Below, piece after piece: positions 2,990 through 50,178 of a stretch of 52,955 bases of DNA; within the stretch, counting starts at the first letter, position 1; each line of letters opens with the position of its first letter. The stretch comes from an uncultured Pseudomonadota bacterium (GTDB lineage: Bacteria; Pseudomonadota; Gammaproteobacteria; Ga0077536). The stretch lies in assembly GCA_913047675.1 (NCBI GenBank), contig CAJWTO010000005.1, positions 1 through 52,955 on the forward strand, given 5' to 3'. The notes beneath the pieces were generated by a model. That model was not told the DNA's origin. It was given only the letters and a program-made list of their open reading frames with translations, and made no database searches. The position numbers and the translations under genes were made by a program.

Positions 2990-3013
2990 GTCATCTAACG
3001 TCTTCGCAATTTC

Positions 3014-47566: not shown

Positions 47567-47603
47567 CTCCACTCCTACGTTTACAGCGTCCAGCATAATT
47601 ATC

Positions 47604-47632
47604 TTTTACCGAAGTTCGTTATTGGTTAGCAT
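47604..47632 (+). promoter_or_regulatory. Putative sigma70 promoter (-35 TTTACC, -10 TAGCAT) positioned to give a leaderless mRNA starting at ATG 47639
   Basis: -10 hexamer at 47627-47632 ends 6 nt before the ATG; no SD sequence upstream. Confidence 0.35.
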
Positions 47633-47638
47633 ATCATT

Positions 47639-48115
47639 ATGAATTTCAATTTTCGTACGATTTCGGTATTTCTCGTTCTCGCTCTCCTAACGAGGTCCGT
47701 TGTTCCTGTCGGATATATGTTATCCAGCGTCGAGAAAACTAGTGGCTTTAGCCTGCAGTTAGATCTGTGTCCTACCCAAAATAATTTCTCTCTTAATGAA
47801 GTCTCAACAGATATCAATGCCACTTCCCATCTCGCCCATCACCAAATGGTCAGCCATGACCATGCGAGCCATCATCCGATGCTTGAAATGCTCTCAGGAA
47901 AAACTCGTCAGGGGCACAGTGACAATTTAACTTCTCACGACACCTGTCATCTATGGGCCGTGAGTTCGGCAAGCATTGTGAGCATCGAGATTGCACAATG
48001 GCTGTTAGACCCTCTATCTCTAAAAGCAGTATCTGTCTATACAGATATCACCCCCAACAGAAACGTTTACACTCGAAAGCAGACTCGCGCGCCGCCTCTA
48101 AAAACTCTTAGCTAA
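47639..48115 (+). CDS. DUF2946/CruR-like His-rich leader protein with C-terminal RAPP motif
   Basis: N-terminal TM segment plus PVGYM, LDLCP, His-rich HLAHHQMVSHDHASHH, HDTCHLW and terminal TRAPP (RAPP at 48086-48097). Confidence 0.75.
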   Translation: MNFNFRTISVFLVLALLTRSVVPVGYMLSSVEKTSGFSLQLDLCPTQNNFSLNEVSTDINATSHLAHHQMVSHDHASHHPMLEMLSGKTRQGHSDNLTSHDTCHLWAVSSASIVSIEIAQWLLDPLSLKAVSVYTDITPNRNVYTRKQTRAPPLKTLS

Positions 48116-48187
48116 ATAACAATCAATTTATAACTAAGGGGTACCTCTAAATGTGGTGCGCTCCCCTGCTATTACGAGTTAAATACG

Positions 48188-49279
48188 ATGAAACTACCAA
48201 TGTACCTAATACAAACCTGCGTACTCGTGTGTGCGCTTATGTTACTAACCCAAATCAATGCACACGAACCCGCCAAAAAAAGAATGCGTGCCGATTCCCA
48301 TGGACCTATCGGCGTGATGGCGGACCACATGCATAAAAAAGGTGAATATATGTTGTCCTATCGACACATGTACATGGACATGAGCGGCAACGAATTTAAC
48401 GGCAGTAATATTTCTGCTGATACTATTGTGACTACCATTGCAAACCGATTTTACGGAGCGTCCGGTCAGCCGGCCAAGCTTAGAGTTGTCCCTGAGAAAA
48501 TGGAAATGCACATGCATATGATCGGAGCGATGTATGCCCCTAGCGATTGGCTCACCCTGATGGTCATGGCTAGCTACCAAGAAAAAGAAATGACCCTAAC
48601 CACTTACAAGGGAATGATGGGCACTGAAGTAAGAGGTAAATTCACCACAAAATCAGATGGATGGGGAGACACCAAGATAAGTGGACTCGTTAAGCTGTAC
48701 GCGTCAAGTCATCACAAACTGCACGCCCACCTAGGTACGTCTTTACCGACTGGTTCAACTAATGAAACCGATAGCATCTTAAACCCTATGGGGATGACTC
48801 CAACCGTACGTTTACCGTATGGAATGCAACTCGGTGCAGGGACTTATGCCATACTGCATGGAGTAACTTATGTTGGCGACAGGAAAAAGTTCAAATGGGG
48901 CACCCAATATGCAGCGACGAACTATCTTGGTGATGATAATGGCTACACTCGAGGGGACAAATATGATCTCACTGGGTGGGTTAGCTATCAGCCAATCGAT
49001 GCGCTCAGTGGTTCTTTAAGAGTCAAATATTCTGACCAAGGATCGATCTCGGGCATAGATGGTAACATTATGCTTCCAACGCAAGCTGCCGATCCCAGGA
49101 ATTATGGCGGCGAGACTACTACCATATTAGTCGGATTAAACTGGGCAGCCCAACCCCAGAGTCCGGCGAGAGGATTAAGATTAGCTATAGAAGCGGGATT
49201 GCCAATCTCTCAAAACCTCCATGGTTTACAAATGGAGACGGACTTCTCAATCACTAGCGGTTTGCAATACATGTTTTGA
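48188..49279 (+). CDS. His/Met-rich outer-membrane beta-barrel protein, putative metal transporter
   Basis: Signal peptide, RADSHGPIGVMADHMHKKGEYMLSYRHMYMDM, MEMHMHM, GWGDTKI, YGMQLGAGT, amphipathic strands and C-terminal GLQYMF. Confidence 0.75.
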   Translation: MKLPMYLIQTCVLVCALMLLTQINAHEPAKKRMRADSHGPIGVMADHMHKKGEYMLSYRHMYMDMSGNEFNGSNISADTIVTTIANRFYGASGQPAKLRVVPEKMEMHMHMIGAMYAPSDWLTLMVMASYQEKEMTLTTYKGMMGTEVRGKFTTKSDGWGDTKISGLVKLYASSHHKLHAHLGTSLPTGSTNETDSILNPMGMTPTVRLPYGMQLGAGTYAILHGVTYVGDRKKFKWGTQYAATNYLGDDNGYTRGDKYDLTGWVSYQPIDALSGSLRVKYSDQGSISGIDGNIMLPTQAADPRNYGGETTTILVGLNWAAQPQSPARGLRLAIEAGLPISQNLHGLQMETDFSITSGLQYMF

Positions 49280-49301
49280 AAGTAGCCCGTTTCCTCAAAC
49301 T

Positions 49302-49330
49302 TTATCGGCTACTATACTTGTAGCCGATAA
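49302..49330. terminator. Hairpin TTATCGGCTAC-TATACTT-GTAGCCGATAA between convergent genes (putative bidirectional terminator)
   Basis: Perfect 11-bp stem with a 7-nt loop, overlapping the stop codon of the MBL gene; U-tracts are weak on both strands. Confidence 0.55.
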
Positions 49331-50178
49331 GTTCCGTTTTCACTTATTAATGTCCCTGCCGTTGGTCCCGCAAAATGAGTGCCGATTATCAAAGTCGGAG
49401 TATCGGCATACTTCCCGAAGATTTTCCGCCTGGTCTCAATCGCTTGTTCATTGTCGACATCAAACGGACTGACCAACGCTGCGTCGTGAAACTGAATGGG
49501 GTGATGAATAAAGTCTCCAGTAATCAACCCAGTTTGGCCTTTCGACTCGAGCAAAACCGAGCAATGTCCTGGCGTATGGCCTGGGGTAGGGATCAAGCTT
49601 ACTCCCTCACAGACCGAAGTGGGTGCCTCCACGGGACGCGCCAATCCAGCATCTAAAATTGGTTTCAAGCACTCATCAAATACCGTTCGCTGTAGCTTCA
49701 TGAAGTCAATATCTGTGTCTTCGTCAATACTGCCCCAAAATTCTAAATCTTGCTTGCCCATGAGATAAGTGGCGTTTGGAAAAGTCGGAATATACTTGCC
49801 ATCAACAAGATGAGTATTCCAGCCCACATGATCAACATGGAGATGAGTACAGAGTACATAGTCTATATCATCCGGCTTGTATCCTTCGGCCAGCATATCT
49901 TCCATGTAGTTAGTCGCCAACATATGGAACCCTTCAAAGCCCTCTCGAGGCCGACTATTGCCAATACAAGTATCAACAACCAACTTGTCCTGAGGCGTTT
50001 CTACGATTAAAGAGTGAATACTTAAACTTAGGTGGCCATCCTTTGTTACGAAGTGAGGAAATAACCATTTTATTTGTTTGACTACTTCTGGCGTGGCAGC
50101 AGGAATGACATCCGAGAATTCCGGAAACACTACCTCTTGAATCTTTGTTACTTTAATATCACCGATATTCCATTTCAT
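49312..50178 (-). CDS. MBL-fold metallo-hydrolase (lactonase-like)
   Basis: VVDTCIG, THLHVDHVGWN (HxHxDH), TPGHTPGH, TGDFIHHP and THF motifs. Confidence 0.9.
   Translation of the reverse strand: MKWNIGDIKVTKIQEVVFPEFSDVIPAATPEVVKQIKWLFPHFVTKDGHLSLSIHSLIVETPQDKLVVDTCIGNSRPREGFEGFHMLATNYMEDMLAEGYKPDDIDYVLCTHLHVDHVGWNTHLVDGKYIPTFPNATYLMGKQDLEFWGSIDEDTDIDFMKLQRTVFDECLKPILDAGLARPVEAPTSVCEGVSLIPTPGHTPGHCSVLLESKGQTGLITGDFIHHPIQFHDAALVSPFDVDNEQAIETRRKIFGKYADTPTLIIGTHFAGPTAGTLISENGTYRLQV

What the first reader, a model, noticed from the sequence alone, without database searches (positions are those of the whole stretch)
47639..48188. CruR-like ribosome-arrest metal sensor (RAPP) with a variant ligand set, controlling a non-TonB outer-membrane protein
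Seen: a 158-aa protein with an N-terminal TM segment, one Cys in LDLCP, a dense His tract, CHLW where the family usually has CxxC, and RAPP five residues before the stop. The 72-nt spacer to the next gene can fold (AGGGG-TACC at 48137-48145 with GGTG-CGCT-CCCCT at 48155-48167). Known: Bordetella CruR (DUF2946) uses CxxC plus RAPP-dependent ribosome stalling to control a downstream TonB-dependent receptor in response to copper, and RAPP is an established arrest motif (ApdA/ApdP). Inference: a translation-coupled sensor in the exported nascent chain, whose CxxW/His-rich site may sense a different metal (Ni, Co or Zn) or Cu with altered affinity. Its target is a different class of transporter from the described case, so this is a candidate new system.
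Basis: partly seen in the sequence, partly recalled or inferred. Interest (0 to 1): 0.8.

Follow-up and report, generated by a model that had tools for sequence, protein, structure and literature searches.

The report
Copper-type stalling leader before methionine-lined pore
A small gene ending in the ribosome-stalling motif RAPP sits in front of a methionine-lined outer-membrane pore; it is a divergent, Cys-x-x-Trp variant of the known copper-sensing CruR leader peptides, and the pore it precedes is probably an undescribed TonB-independent copper channel.

Summary
ORF 47639-48115 (+) encodes 158 aa with an N-terminal hydrophobic helix, Cys44, a His-rich tract, C103-H-L-W106 and RAPP five residues before the stop. 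A 72-nt spacer separates it from a 363-aa gene. It is the only R[AG]PP-terminal small ORF in the 2.15-Mb genome.

It scores below the Pfam DUF2946 cut-off (12.6 vs 23.7 bits). It has the CruR architecture, and Cys103 aligns with the first Cys of CxxC and Trp106 with the second. CxxW defines a subfamily of 31 sequences with Cys, Trp and RAPP invariant and a near-fixed 47-residue Cys-to-Arg distance.

The downstream protein is a Met/His-rich barrel that resembles the 12-stranded FapF and COG4313 channels. RAPP leaders directly precede 53 of 76 homologous loci (controls 0-2). These leaders are CxxC, CxxW or single-Cys types. A PCuAC copper-chaperone gene is adjacent in 18 of 80 loci. Elsewhere, CxxW leaders head TonB-receptor operons, one with PepSY_TM.

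Copper, not Ni, Co or Zn, is therefore the likeliest signal. The direction of control and the mechanism are inferred, not shown; Rho-type attenuation is favoured by a C>G bubble in 54 of 54 loci. I rate it a new variant of a known kind, with an unreported target class.

The parts
47639..48115 (+). Leader gene: 158-aa CruR-like arrest-peptide ORF of the CxxW subtype
   Evidence: ORF. The frame is open in 8 relatives, with an excess of third-position changes. PF11162 scores 12.6 bits, E = 0.24, aligned through to the profile end. Subfamily alignment A5.
47651..47719 (+). N-terminal hydrophobic export or anchor segment (about residues 5-27, ...ISVFLVLALLTRSVVPVGYM)
   Evidence: This is the only confidently modelled part of the leader: helix 5-20 with pLDDT about 80. 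R19, G25 and M27 are invariant or nearly so in A5.
47768..47770 (+). Cys44 codon (LCPTQNNF), the semi-conserved first Cys of DUF2946-type leaders
   Evidence: Nearly invariant column in the 50 leaders of A3 and invariant in A5.
47831..47944 (+). His-rich tract (H65...H100, including the invariant H73, H79 and H93)
   Evidence: A His run lies at the same place in most CxxW leaders.
47945..47956 (+). C103-H-L-W106, the sensor motif in place of CxxC
   Evidence: C103 falls in the invariant Cys column and W106 in the column of the second Cys. Cys and Trp are invariant in 31 of 31 sequences of A5. The Cys-to-Arg(RAPP) distance is 47 residues in 26 of 31.
48086..48097 (+). RAPP arrest motif codons CGC GCG CCG CCU. 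Expected stall: Pro152 codon in the P site and Pro153 codon in the A site
   Evidence: Codons. RAPP is invariant in A3 and A5. The stall position is taken from the CruR toeprint in PMC12992588.
48010..48149 (+). C>G stretch (C/G 2-3 in 60-nt windows) spanning the leader's 3' end and the first part of the spacer; candidate Rho loading region
   Evidence: The same skew is present in 54 of 54 leader loci (mean +0.21 against -0.01 in the barrel gene; Wilcoxon p = 2e-10). cruR has the same layout.
48138..48164 (+).
   Evidence: Pairing potential is kept in 8 relatives, but no significant covariation was found.
48188..49279 (+). Regulated gene: 363-aa Met/His-rich outer-membrane barrel (signal peptide, C-terminal Phe)
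   Evidence: More than 1152 homologues. AlphaFold2 model with pLDDT 88. Fold matches to FapF and the COG4313 channel 4rl8. 6.8% Met, with 13 internal Met and 4 His positions invariant in 35 sequences (one more Met and one more His at 97%) and no Cys.
49301..49331 (+). Terminator-like hairpin that closes the two-gene unit; it lies between convergent genes

Best explanation
The 158-codon ORF is a translated regulatory leader of the CruR/CutF (DUF2946-like) kind. It heads a two-gene unit whose second gene encodes a methionine-lined, TonB-independent outer-membrane channel, most likely for copper.

Proposed mechanism:
1. The ribosome arrests on RAPP, with the Pro152 codon in the P site.
2. At that moment Cys103 and Trp106, a fixed 47-50 residues back, have just left the exit tunnel or entered the Sec channel, with the His tract ahead of them.
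3. Metal binding there, most likely copper bound by Cys plus His with Trp assisting, changes how long the arrest lasts.
4. By analogy with CruR and an uptake-type target, I favour this logic. Without copper the stalled ribosome covers the C-rich 3' end of the leader and keeps Rho off, so the channel gene is transcribed. With copper the arrest is released, the ribosome terminates, and Rho stops transcription in or after the spacer.

Shown here: the ORF, its motifs, their conservation and spacing, the leader-barrel linkage, the copper-linked neighbours, and the C>G skew.

Inferred: that arrest occurs, that copper is the ligand, the sign of the response, and the involvement of Rho.

The confidence given (0.6) is for the core claim: a CruR-like, copper-type arrest leader controlling a non-TonB channel. 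I would put the Rho-type logic on its own at about 0.4.
For: Leader identity:
- Architecture is TM, semi-conserved Cys, His tract, Cys at a fixed distance, then RAPP. C103 aligns with the first Cys of CxxC.
- 29 of 50 sister leaders, and 17 of 21 CxxC ones, hit PF11162 at E <= 0.01.
- In the CxxW subfamily, Cys, Trp and RAPP are invariant at about 20-30% overall identity, and the stretch from Cys to RAPP aligns almost without gaps.
- The leader is predicted to be disordered (pLDDT 51), as reported for Bp2923.
- It is the only RAPP-terminal small ORF in the genome.

Linkage to the barrel: a RAPP ORF lies directly upstream in 53 of 76 loci, against 0 of 76, 1 of 76 and 2 of 74 in the controls.

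Copper:
- PCuAC is adjacent in 18 of 80 loci.
- The barrel has 13 invariant internal Met and 4 invariant His positions in i, i+2 ladders.
- CxxW leaders precede TonB receptors nearest to TIGR01778, one followed by PepSY_TM.
- The genome has a heme-copper oxidase and no detectable TIGR01778-like receptor.

Rho-type layout: a C>G bubble at the leader's 3' end plus spacer here and in 54 of 54 loci, as in cruR.

RAPP arrest of CruR has been shown in vitro (PMC12992588).
Against: - The protein itself fails the DUF2946 gathering score (12.6 against 23.7 bits).
- A profile-profile comparison of CxxW and CxxC leaders aligns only the RAPP tail (probability 22%). Common descent rests on architecture more than on sequence statistics.
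- The defining CxxC is absent, and whether one Cys plus Trp and His binds copper is untested.
- One close homologue has RATP.
- The spacer is 72 nt, much shorter than the 162 nt of cruR.
- The C-richness could be a by-product of Pro, Ala, Arg, Ser and Thr codons.
- Thermodynamic modelling showed no consistent exposure of the ribosome-binding site on stalling, so the coupling step is open.
Confidence: 0.6

Rival explanations
1. Same leader and same metal, but CutF-type logic. Copper binding prolongs the stall, and the stalled or queued ribosome opens mRNA structure that hides the channel gene's ribosome-binding site (GAGUU at 48176-48180), so copper switches the channel on.
For: CutF, the other studied DUF2946 member, works this way. 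Two segments, ACUCG at 48071-48075 and AACUC at 48103-48107, are complementary to the invariant GAGUU upstream of the start codon, and they appear paired with it in predicted folds. The spacer is short and carries a conserved hairpin.
Against: Masking the stalled-ribosome footprint did not consistently raise the unpaired probability of the binding site in 8 relatives: 0.27 to 0.36, 0.37 to 0.16, 0.61 to 0.53 and so on. The paired segments are invariant, so there is no covariation. A channel that sits beside PCuAC, an oxidase-assembly chaperone, looks like uptake, which should be repressed by copper rather than induced.
Confidence: 0.2
2. The CxxW and His-rich site senses another metal (Ni, Co or Zn), and the barrel imports that metal.
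For: His-only CutF-like clusters lie next to HupE/UreJ Ni/Co genes (PMC9973294). The leader is very His-rich. The second Cys of the copper motif is missing.
Against: The same barrel family is led by canonical CxxC leaders (21 of 50) and neighbours PCuAC (18 of 80). A Met-rich, Cys-free lining is typical of Cu(I) or Ag(I) sites (established knowledge of CusF, CopB/PcoB and Ctr1). CxxW leaders also head TonB receptors that best match the TonB copper model. No Ni, Co or Zn gene recurs in the 80 loci.
Confidence: 0.1
3. The 158-aa product is a working membrane-anchored periplasmic metal-binding protein, a chaperone or partner of the barrel, and its C-terminal RAPP has no regulatory role, or it only monitors Sec export as SecM and ApdA/ApdP do.
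For: It has an export signal and a His/Cys-rich exported part. RAPP arrest peptides that monitor secretion are well known (PMC10987492, listed). Metal sensing is untested here.
Against: Apart from Cys, Trp, RAPP and the anchor, the sequence is barely conserved (mean column identity 17-30%), and it is predicted to be disordered. The exact Cys-to-RAPP spacing makes sense only if the position relative to the ribosome matters. The downstream genes are metal-related, not Sec or YidC.
Confidence: 0.07

Closest known systems
CruR (Bp2923) of Bordetella pertussis, Pfam DUF2946/PF11162, leader of cruR-crtA(bfrG)-bp2921 (PMC9426467; PMC12914433)
   Same: It is a small exported first gene. It has a semi-conserved early Cys and a sensor Cys about 47-49 residues before a C-terminal RAPP that lies 3-5 residues from the stop. 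The rest is predicted to be unstructured. A C>G stretch runs from the leader's 3' end into the spacer. The downstream gene encodes an outer-membrane uptake-type protein.
   Different: CxxW replaces CxxC, and the Cys-to-Arg distance is 47 rather than 49. There is a dense His tract. The Pfam score is below threshold. The spacer is 72 nt against 162 nt. The target is a small Met-lined barrel resembling 12-stranded channels, not a 22-stranded TonB-dependent transporter, and no PepSY_TM gene follows.
CutF of Rhodobacter capsulatus (cutFOG; PMC9973294; bioRxiv 10.1101/2025.02.05.636593)
   Same: It is an exported DUF2946-like leader with a metal motif about 45 residues before a proline-rich C-terminus. 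The spacer is short and carries a stem-loop before the regulated gene.
   Different: CutF has CxxxC and controls a periplasmic multicopper oxidase for detoxification. There, copper induces stalling and opens a stem-loop over the ribosome-binding site. Here the target looks like uptake, and modelling gave no clear unmasking.
COG4313 channel Pput2725 (PDB 4RL8) and FapF (PDB 5O65), 12-stranded outer-membrane barrels; Pfam PF13557 Phenol_MetA_deg
   Same: These are the best fold matches to the downstream protein (TM about 0.73-0.76 on target length). Some family members hit PF13557.
   Different: Sequence identity is 12-14%, and there is no sequence-level PDB hit. The window protein does not reach PF13557. 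The invariant Met/His ladders and the N-terminal H-x-P-I-G-V-M-x-D-H-M-H segment are special to this family. The known members carry hydrophobic molecules or amyloid subunits, not metals.
RAPP arrest peptides ApdA/ApdP and the RAPP/RGPP small-protein survey (PMC10987492; PMC12992588)
   Same: A C-terminal RAPP in a small exported protein upstream of the regulated gene. The survey lists TonB receptors, YcnI, PCuAC and PepSY as enriched downstream classes.
   Different: ApdA and ApdP monitor Sec or YidC. The text of the survey does not mention this barrel family as a target.

Membership tests
DUF2946 / CruR family (Pfam PF11162) | Match to the PF11162 profile at or above the gathering score (23.7 bits) | tested here: not met
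   12.6 bits, E = 0.24, aligned over residues 64-153 to profile positions 28-117 of 117. The whole-genome scan gave no hit. Other CxxW leaders score 15-20 bits. 29 of 50 leaders of the same barrel family hit at E <= 0.01.
DUF2946 / CruR family (Pfam PF11162) | Conserved CXXC metal motif | tested here: not met
   CHLW: the first Cys is kept and the second position is Trp. This is invariant in the CxxW subfamily.
DUF2946 / CruR family (Pfam PF11162) | C-terminal RAPP a few residues before the stop | tested here: met
   RAPP at residues 150-153, five residues before the stop. Conserved in 8 of 9 close homologues and in 31 of 31 sequences of A5, counting one RATP as a variant.
DUF2946 / CruR family (Pfam PF11162) | Spacing between the metal motif and RAPP conserved to within 1-2 residues (45 intervening residues in Bp2923) | tested here: met
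   43 residues lie between W106 and R150. The Cys-to-Arg distance is 47, against a mode of 49 in CxxC leaders of the same barrel family. It is 47 in 26 of 31 CxxW leaders.
DUF2946 / CruR family (Pfam PF11162) | N-terminal export signal (signal peptide or N-in TM segment) | tested here: inconclusive
   A hydrophobic helix at residues 5-20 is modelled with pLDDT about 80 and the segment is conserved. No dedicated signal-peptide or topology predictor was available.
DUF2946 / CruR family (Pfam PF11162) | First gene of an operon with copper-related genes, separated by a non-coupling spacer | tested here: met
   It is first in a two-gene unit with a 72-nt spacer. The barrel family neighbours PCuAC in 18 of 80 loci. 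The copper role of the barrel itself is inferred.
DUF2946 / CruR family (Pfam PF11162) | RAPP-dependent ribosome arrest and copper-dependent control of the downstream gene | not testable with these tools
   This needs toeprinting and reporter assays.
TonB-dependent copper transporters (CrtA / OprC, TIGR01778) | 22-stranded barrel with an N-terminal plug and a TonB box, about 650-750 aa | tested here: not met
   The protein is 363 aa. The model is a small barrel whose best fold matches are the 12-stranded FapF and COG4313 channels. There are no Plug or TonB_dep_Rec hits.
PF13557 Phenol_MetA_deg / COG4313 channels | Profile match, or the 12-stranded COG4313 fold | tested here: inconclusive
   The window protein has no Pfam hit, but part of its family carries PF13557. 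The fold match to 4rl8 has E = 3e-13 and TM 0.75 on target length. I read it as a distant structural relative forming its own Met/His-rich subfamily.

The most novel reading that the evidence does not exclude
The CxxW leader and the Met-lined barrel together form a dedicated, TonB-independent outer-membrane copper uptake route. It is controlled by a nascent-chain sensor that uses Cys plus Trp (cation-pi, as in CusF) and His instead of a Cys pair. Leader types (CxxC, CxxW, single Cys) and targets (TonB receptor or passive barrel) are freely recombined across Alpha- and Gammaproteobacteria. This would give small-genome marine bacteria that lack a copper TonB receptor their only specific copper entry.
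Probability: 0.4. Interest if true: 0.72.

Novelty: new variant of a known kind. Interest (0 to 1): 0.58.

Why it matters
Copper uptake across the bacterial outer membrane is poorly understood. A 2026 paper states that the few copper-specific outer-membrane transporters known are all TonB-dependent (PMC12914433). This locus, with 53 of 76 related loci, ties a large unnamed family of Met/His-lined small barrels (more than 1100 homologues) to copper-type arrest-peptide leaders and to PCuAC. That nominates a passive copper channel family that can be tested directly.

It also shows that the CxxC motif held to define CruR leaders is dispensable in many natural leaders. 29 of the 50 leaders collected here have CxxW or a single Cys. 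These fall under the Pfam threshold, so profile-based surveys probably miss them.

The strict 47-residue Cys-to-RAPP spacing gives a clean handle for studying how a ligand bound outside the ribosome tunnel releases or prolongs arrest.

Tried and rejected
- Pfam and NCBIfam on the leader and the barrel gave only a sub-threshold DUF2946 hit and nothing for the barrel. The PF11162 scan of the own genome gave nothing.
- A profile-profile comparison of CxxW and CxxC leaders aligned only the RAPP tail (probability 22%). Sequence statistics alone therefore do not prove homology.
- A PDB sequence search with the barrel profile gave no hit.
- I modelled ribosome-binding-site unmasking by a stalled ribosome with ViennaRNA, masking the footprint, in 8 relatives. 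There was no consistent change, so I did not adopt the CutF-type mechanism as first choice.
A longer fold that pairs the RAPP codons with 48153-48161 (z = -2.48) is not kept in relatives on inspection of the alignment. The consensus hairpin has conserved pairing potential but no significant covariation.
- The SD-like AAGGGG plus ATG at 48151 opens a 61-aa ORF. The frame is not conserved in L001, so I rejected it as a gene.
- The Rfam scan found nothing credible.
- The promoter scan found no sigma-70-like site on the + strand upstream of the leader.
- A literature search for PF13557 or COG4313 with copper found no link. The supplements of the CruR and CutF papers do not mention PF13557.
- Four of the contig look-ups (P0131, P0139, P0143, P0004) returned contigs too short to identify the downstream gene.
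Full report
**What is there.** The + strand carries an ATG-initiated ORF at 47639-48115 encoding 158 aa. The protein begins with a hydrophobic segment (MNFNFRTISVFLVLALLTRSVVPVGYML). It has exactly two cysteines, C44 in LDLCPTQNNF and C103 in SHDTCHLW. His makes up 8.2% of residues 28-149, against 1.9% in the window's long ORFs. It ends ...NRNVYTRKQTRAPPLKTLS, so RAPP occupies residues 150-153, five residues before the UAA at 48113-48115. After 72 nt (48116-48187) comes a 363-aa ORF at 48188-49279. That ORF is followed by a terminator-like hairpin at 49301-49331 shared with a convergent metallo-beta-lactamase-fold gene. Upstream, a family III CoA-transferase gene is transcribed divergently, with only 42 nt between the two start codons.

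**Is it more than chance?** I laid out the whole 2.15-Mb assembly (88% complete) and listed every six-frame ORF of 50-300 aa with R[AG]PP within eight residues of its end. This leader is the only one. Nine close homologues (63-99% identity) keep the frame, the LCPTQNNF block, the HSDNLTSHD[TS]CHLW block and the NRN[VI]Y.R.QTRAPP block. One has RATP. Across five equal-length genes, third codon positions change about twice as often as first or second positions in all but the closest pair. Amino-acid replacements are frequent outside the conserved blocks. This is the pattern expected of a translated leader in which only a few positions matter.

**Relation to CruR/DUF2946.**
The alignment does run end to end into the profile's C-terminus.
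- I collected 80 genomic loci that encode homologues of the downstream protein. From these I aligned 50 RAPP-ending upstream ORFs.
- In that alignment only M1, one Cys column, and R, P and P of RAPP are invariant. C103 of the window protein sits in that Cys column, which is the first Cys of CxxC in the canonical leaders. W106 sits in the column of the second Cys, and C44 is in the nearly invariant "iC" column.
- 29 of the 50 leaders, and 17 of 21 with CxxC, match PF11162 at E <= 0.01.
- A profile-profile comparison of CxxW leaders with CxxC leaders aligns only the RAPP tail (probability 22%).
- The assignment therefore rests on shared architecture and context, not on strong sequence statistics. 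By Pfam's own rule the window protein is not a member.

**The CxxW variant is a real subfamily.**
- An exhaustive profile search of 1.8 billion representative proteins found 15 clusters. Nearly all carry LCP[ST]QN, then a His run, then C-x-x-W, then RAPP.
- Adding the CxxW leaders found upstream of barrel homologues gives 31 sequences at about 20-30% identity. M27, C44, C103, W106, R150, A151 and P153 are invariant. The stretch from Cys to RAPP aligns almost without gaps.
- The Cys-to-Arg distance is 47 residues in 26 of 31 sequences (range 46-48). For CxxC leaders of the same barrel family the mode is 49 (range 46-52), and Bp2923 is also 49.
- Among the 50 leaders, 21 are CxxC, 15 are CxxW and 14 have a single Cys (CP.., CLFG and others). 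The second Cys is therefore dispensable in most leaders of this barrel family.
- CxxW leaders score 12-20 bits on PF11162. The published survey based on that profile probably missed them.
- The subtype is rare: a profile of it matched 5 of 400 sampled genomes of the class, one of them a single-Cys RGPP leader.
- The leader is predicted to be disordered apart from its N-terminal helix (pLDDT 51), as Roy et al. reported for Bp2923.

**The downstream gene.**
- It has more than 1152 homologues, mostly unnamed or called "transporter". A minority reach PF13557. It has no sequence-level PDB relative.
- AlphaFold2 gives a confident barrel (pLDDT 88). The best structural matches are the 12-stranded FapF and the COG4313 channel 4RL8 (E about 1e-13, TM 0.73-0.76 on target length, 12-14% identity).
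- It is not a TonB-dependent transporter.
- The mature protein is 6.8% Met (background 2.8%) and has no Cys.
- In 35 diverse homologues, M44, M55, M63, M65, M105, M109, M111, M115, M125, M135, M213 and H47, H49, H110, H179 are invariant. They often lie in i, i+2 ladders along strands (MYMDM, MEMHMHM). An invariant N-terminal H-x-P-I-G-V-M-x-D-H-M-H segment is also present.
- Met/His-rich, Cys-free sites are the hallmark of Cu(I)/Ag(I) handling in the envelope. This rests on established knowledge of CusF, CopB/PcoB and Ctr1, not on a test here.

**Linkage and metal.**
- A RAPP-ending ORF lies directly upstream on the same strand in 53 of 76 loci. The controls give 0 of 76 on the opposite strand, 1 of 76 downstream and 2 of 74 further upstream.
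- The only recurrent functional neighbour is the copper chaperone PCuAC. It lies on the same strand and adjacent in 18 of 80 loci, before or after the barrel gene.
- The five leaderless loci examined carry a histidine kinase and response regulator pair next door instead.
- The window leader's nearest non-clade relatives head other targets. P0135, P0138, P0140 and P0142 precede TonB receptors of 706-728 aa, one of them followed by PepSY_TM as in cruR-crtA-bp2921. P0136 precedes a PF13557 barrel.
- Three of those four receptors have the TonB copper receptor model as their best NCBIfam match, well below its cut-off.
- The window's genome encodes a heme-copper oxidase subunit I and no detectable TIGR01778-like receptor.
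- Taken together, leader types and targets are interchangeable modules around one signal, and every clue points to copper. I found nothing pointing to Ni, Co or Zn.

**Mechanism.**
- RAPP arrest with Pro-tRNA in the A site is established for ApdA and ApdP, and has been shown for CruR in vitro (PMC12992588).
- With the Pro152 codon (48092-48094) in the P site, C103 and W106 are 46-49 residues from the peptidyl-transferase centre. That puts them just outside the tunnel, or in the Sec channel if export is co-translational (the argument of PMC9973294). The near-fixed spacing fits a sensor that must sit at a defined place when the ribosome stalls.
- For the coupling step there are two precedents: Rho-dependent termination, prevented by the stalled ribosome (CruR), and opening of a stem-loop over the ribosome-binding site (CutF).
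- Here the last 100 nt or so of the leader and the first 35 nt of the spacer are C-rich and G-poor (C/G 2-3). The same skew is present in 54 of 54 leader loci (mean +0.21 against -0.01 in the barrel gene, p = 2e-10). This mirrors the C>G bubble and rut site mapped in cruR.
- A spacer hairpin at 48138-48164 keeps its pairing potential in eight relatives (86% paired against 40-60% for slid controls) but lacks significant covariation. It could be a pause site.
- Segments ACUCG and AACUC can pair with the invariant GAGUU nine nucleotides before the start codon. However, masking the stalled-ribosome footprint did not consistently expose that site.
- I therefore favour CruR-type logic: no copper leads to stalling and read-through, and copper leads to release and Rho termination. 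My confidence in that step is moderate, and the CutF-type alternative stays open.

**Comparison with the literature.** The CruR paper lists TonB receptors, PepSY_TM, Sco, PCuAC, YcnI, CopC, MbnPH-like and AhpC_TSA as partners. The CutF paper lists OEP/RND, TonB, PCuAC and HupE/UreJ, and notes clusters with Cys, His or mixed motifs. The RAPP survey lists TonB receptors, YcnI, PCuAC and PepSY. None mentions this barrel family or a CxxW class in the text or supplements held. Figures could not be read. A 2026 paper states that the known copper-specific outer-membrane transporters are TonB-dependent. Earlier notes of this scan describe the same barrel family behind RAPP leaders in a Roseovarius genome and a similar pair elsewhere. 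I used these as leads only, and my own survey agrees with them.

**Verdict.** It is a CruR-like arrest leader with a variant sensor motif, and its target is a non-TonB channel. The variant is a conserved subfamily. The pairing with this channel family is widespread rather than unique, and the evidence favours copper over another metal. It is a new variant of a known kind. The larger interest lies in the channel family and in the finding that CxxC is not required. Arrest, the ligand, the sign of the response and the Rho step all remain untested.

Noticed in passing
window 48188-49279: The downstream 363-aa protein belongs to a large unnamed family (more than 1152 homologues) of Met/His-lined small outer-membrane barrels. 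13 internal Met and 4 His positions are invariant in 35 diverse members, and there is no Cys. It is a candidate passive Cu(I) channel family.
   Followed up: partly
L027, L039, L049, L052, L063 (about 900-2800, or 4100-5900 in L039): Barrel homologues that lack a RAPP leader have a histidine kinase (HisKA/HATPase, 6TM sensor) and response regulator pair next door instead. This suggests alternative regulation of the same channel.
   Followed up: partly
L016:2310-2729, L018, L019, L029, L041, L055 (ORFs ending just upstream of position 3001): Some alphaproteobacterial leaders of the same barrel end in GHDPP, RDPP, LDPP or TGPP instead of RAPP. The L016 leader still reaches the DUF2946 cut-off (24.0 bits). 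These may be variant arrest motifs.
   Followed up: no
P0002 (close homologue of the leader): A natural variant reads RATP instead of RAPP in an otherwise 91% identical leader. It may be a loss-of-arrest allele or a sequencing error.
   Followed up: no
window 47597-47638: Only 42 nt separate the divergent start codons of the CoA-transferase gene and the leader, and this synteny is kept in relatives L095 and L096. No sigma-70-like site was found on the + strand, so the leader's promoter must overlap the neighbour's coding region.
   Followed up: partly
window 48136-48153: A strong Shine-Dalgarno-like AAGGGG lies 9 nt before an ATG (48151) inside the spacer hairpin, 46 nt upstream of the real start. 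The ORF it would open (61 aa, a different frame) is not conserved in L001. The purine run forms the 5' arm of the conserved hairpin.
   Followed up: partly
L015, L021, L065, L067, L073 and 13 other loci: The PCuAC copper chaperone gene sits in varying order relative to the leader and the barrel: PCuAC-leader-barrel, leader-PCuAC-barrel, or barrel-PCuAC. This argues for co-function rather than a fixed operon design.
   Followed up: partly
window 49301-49331: A 12-bp hairpin followed by a T-rich tail lies between the convergent barrel gene and the metallo-beta-lactamase-fold gene. It is probably a shared terminator.
   Followed up: no
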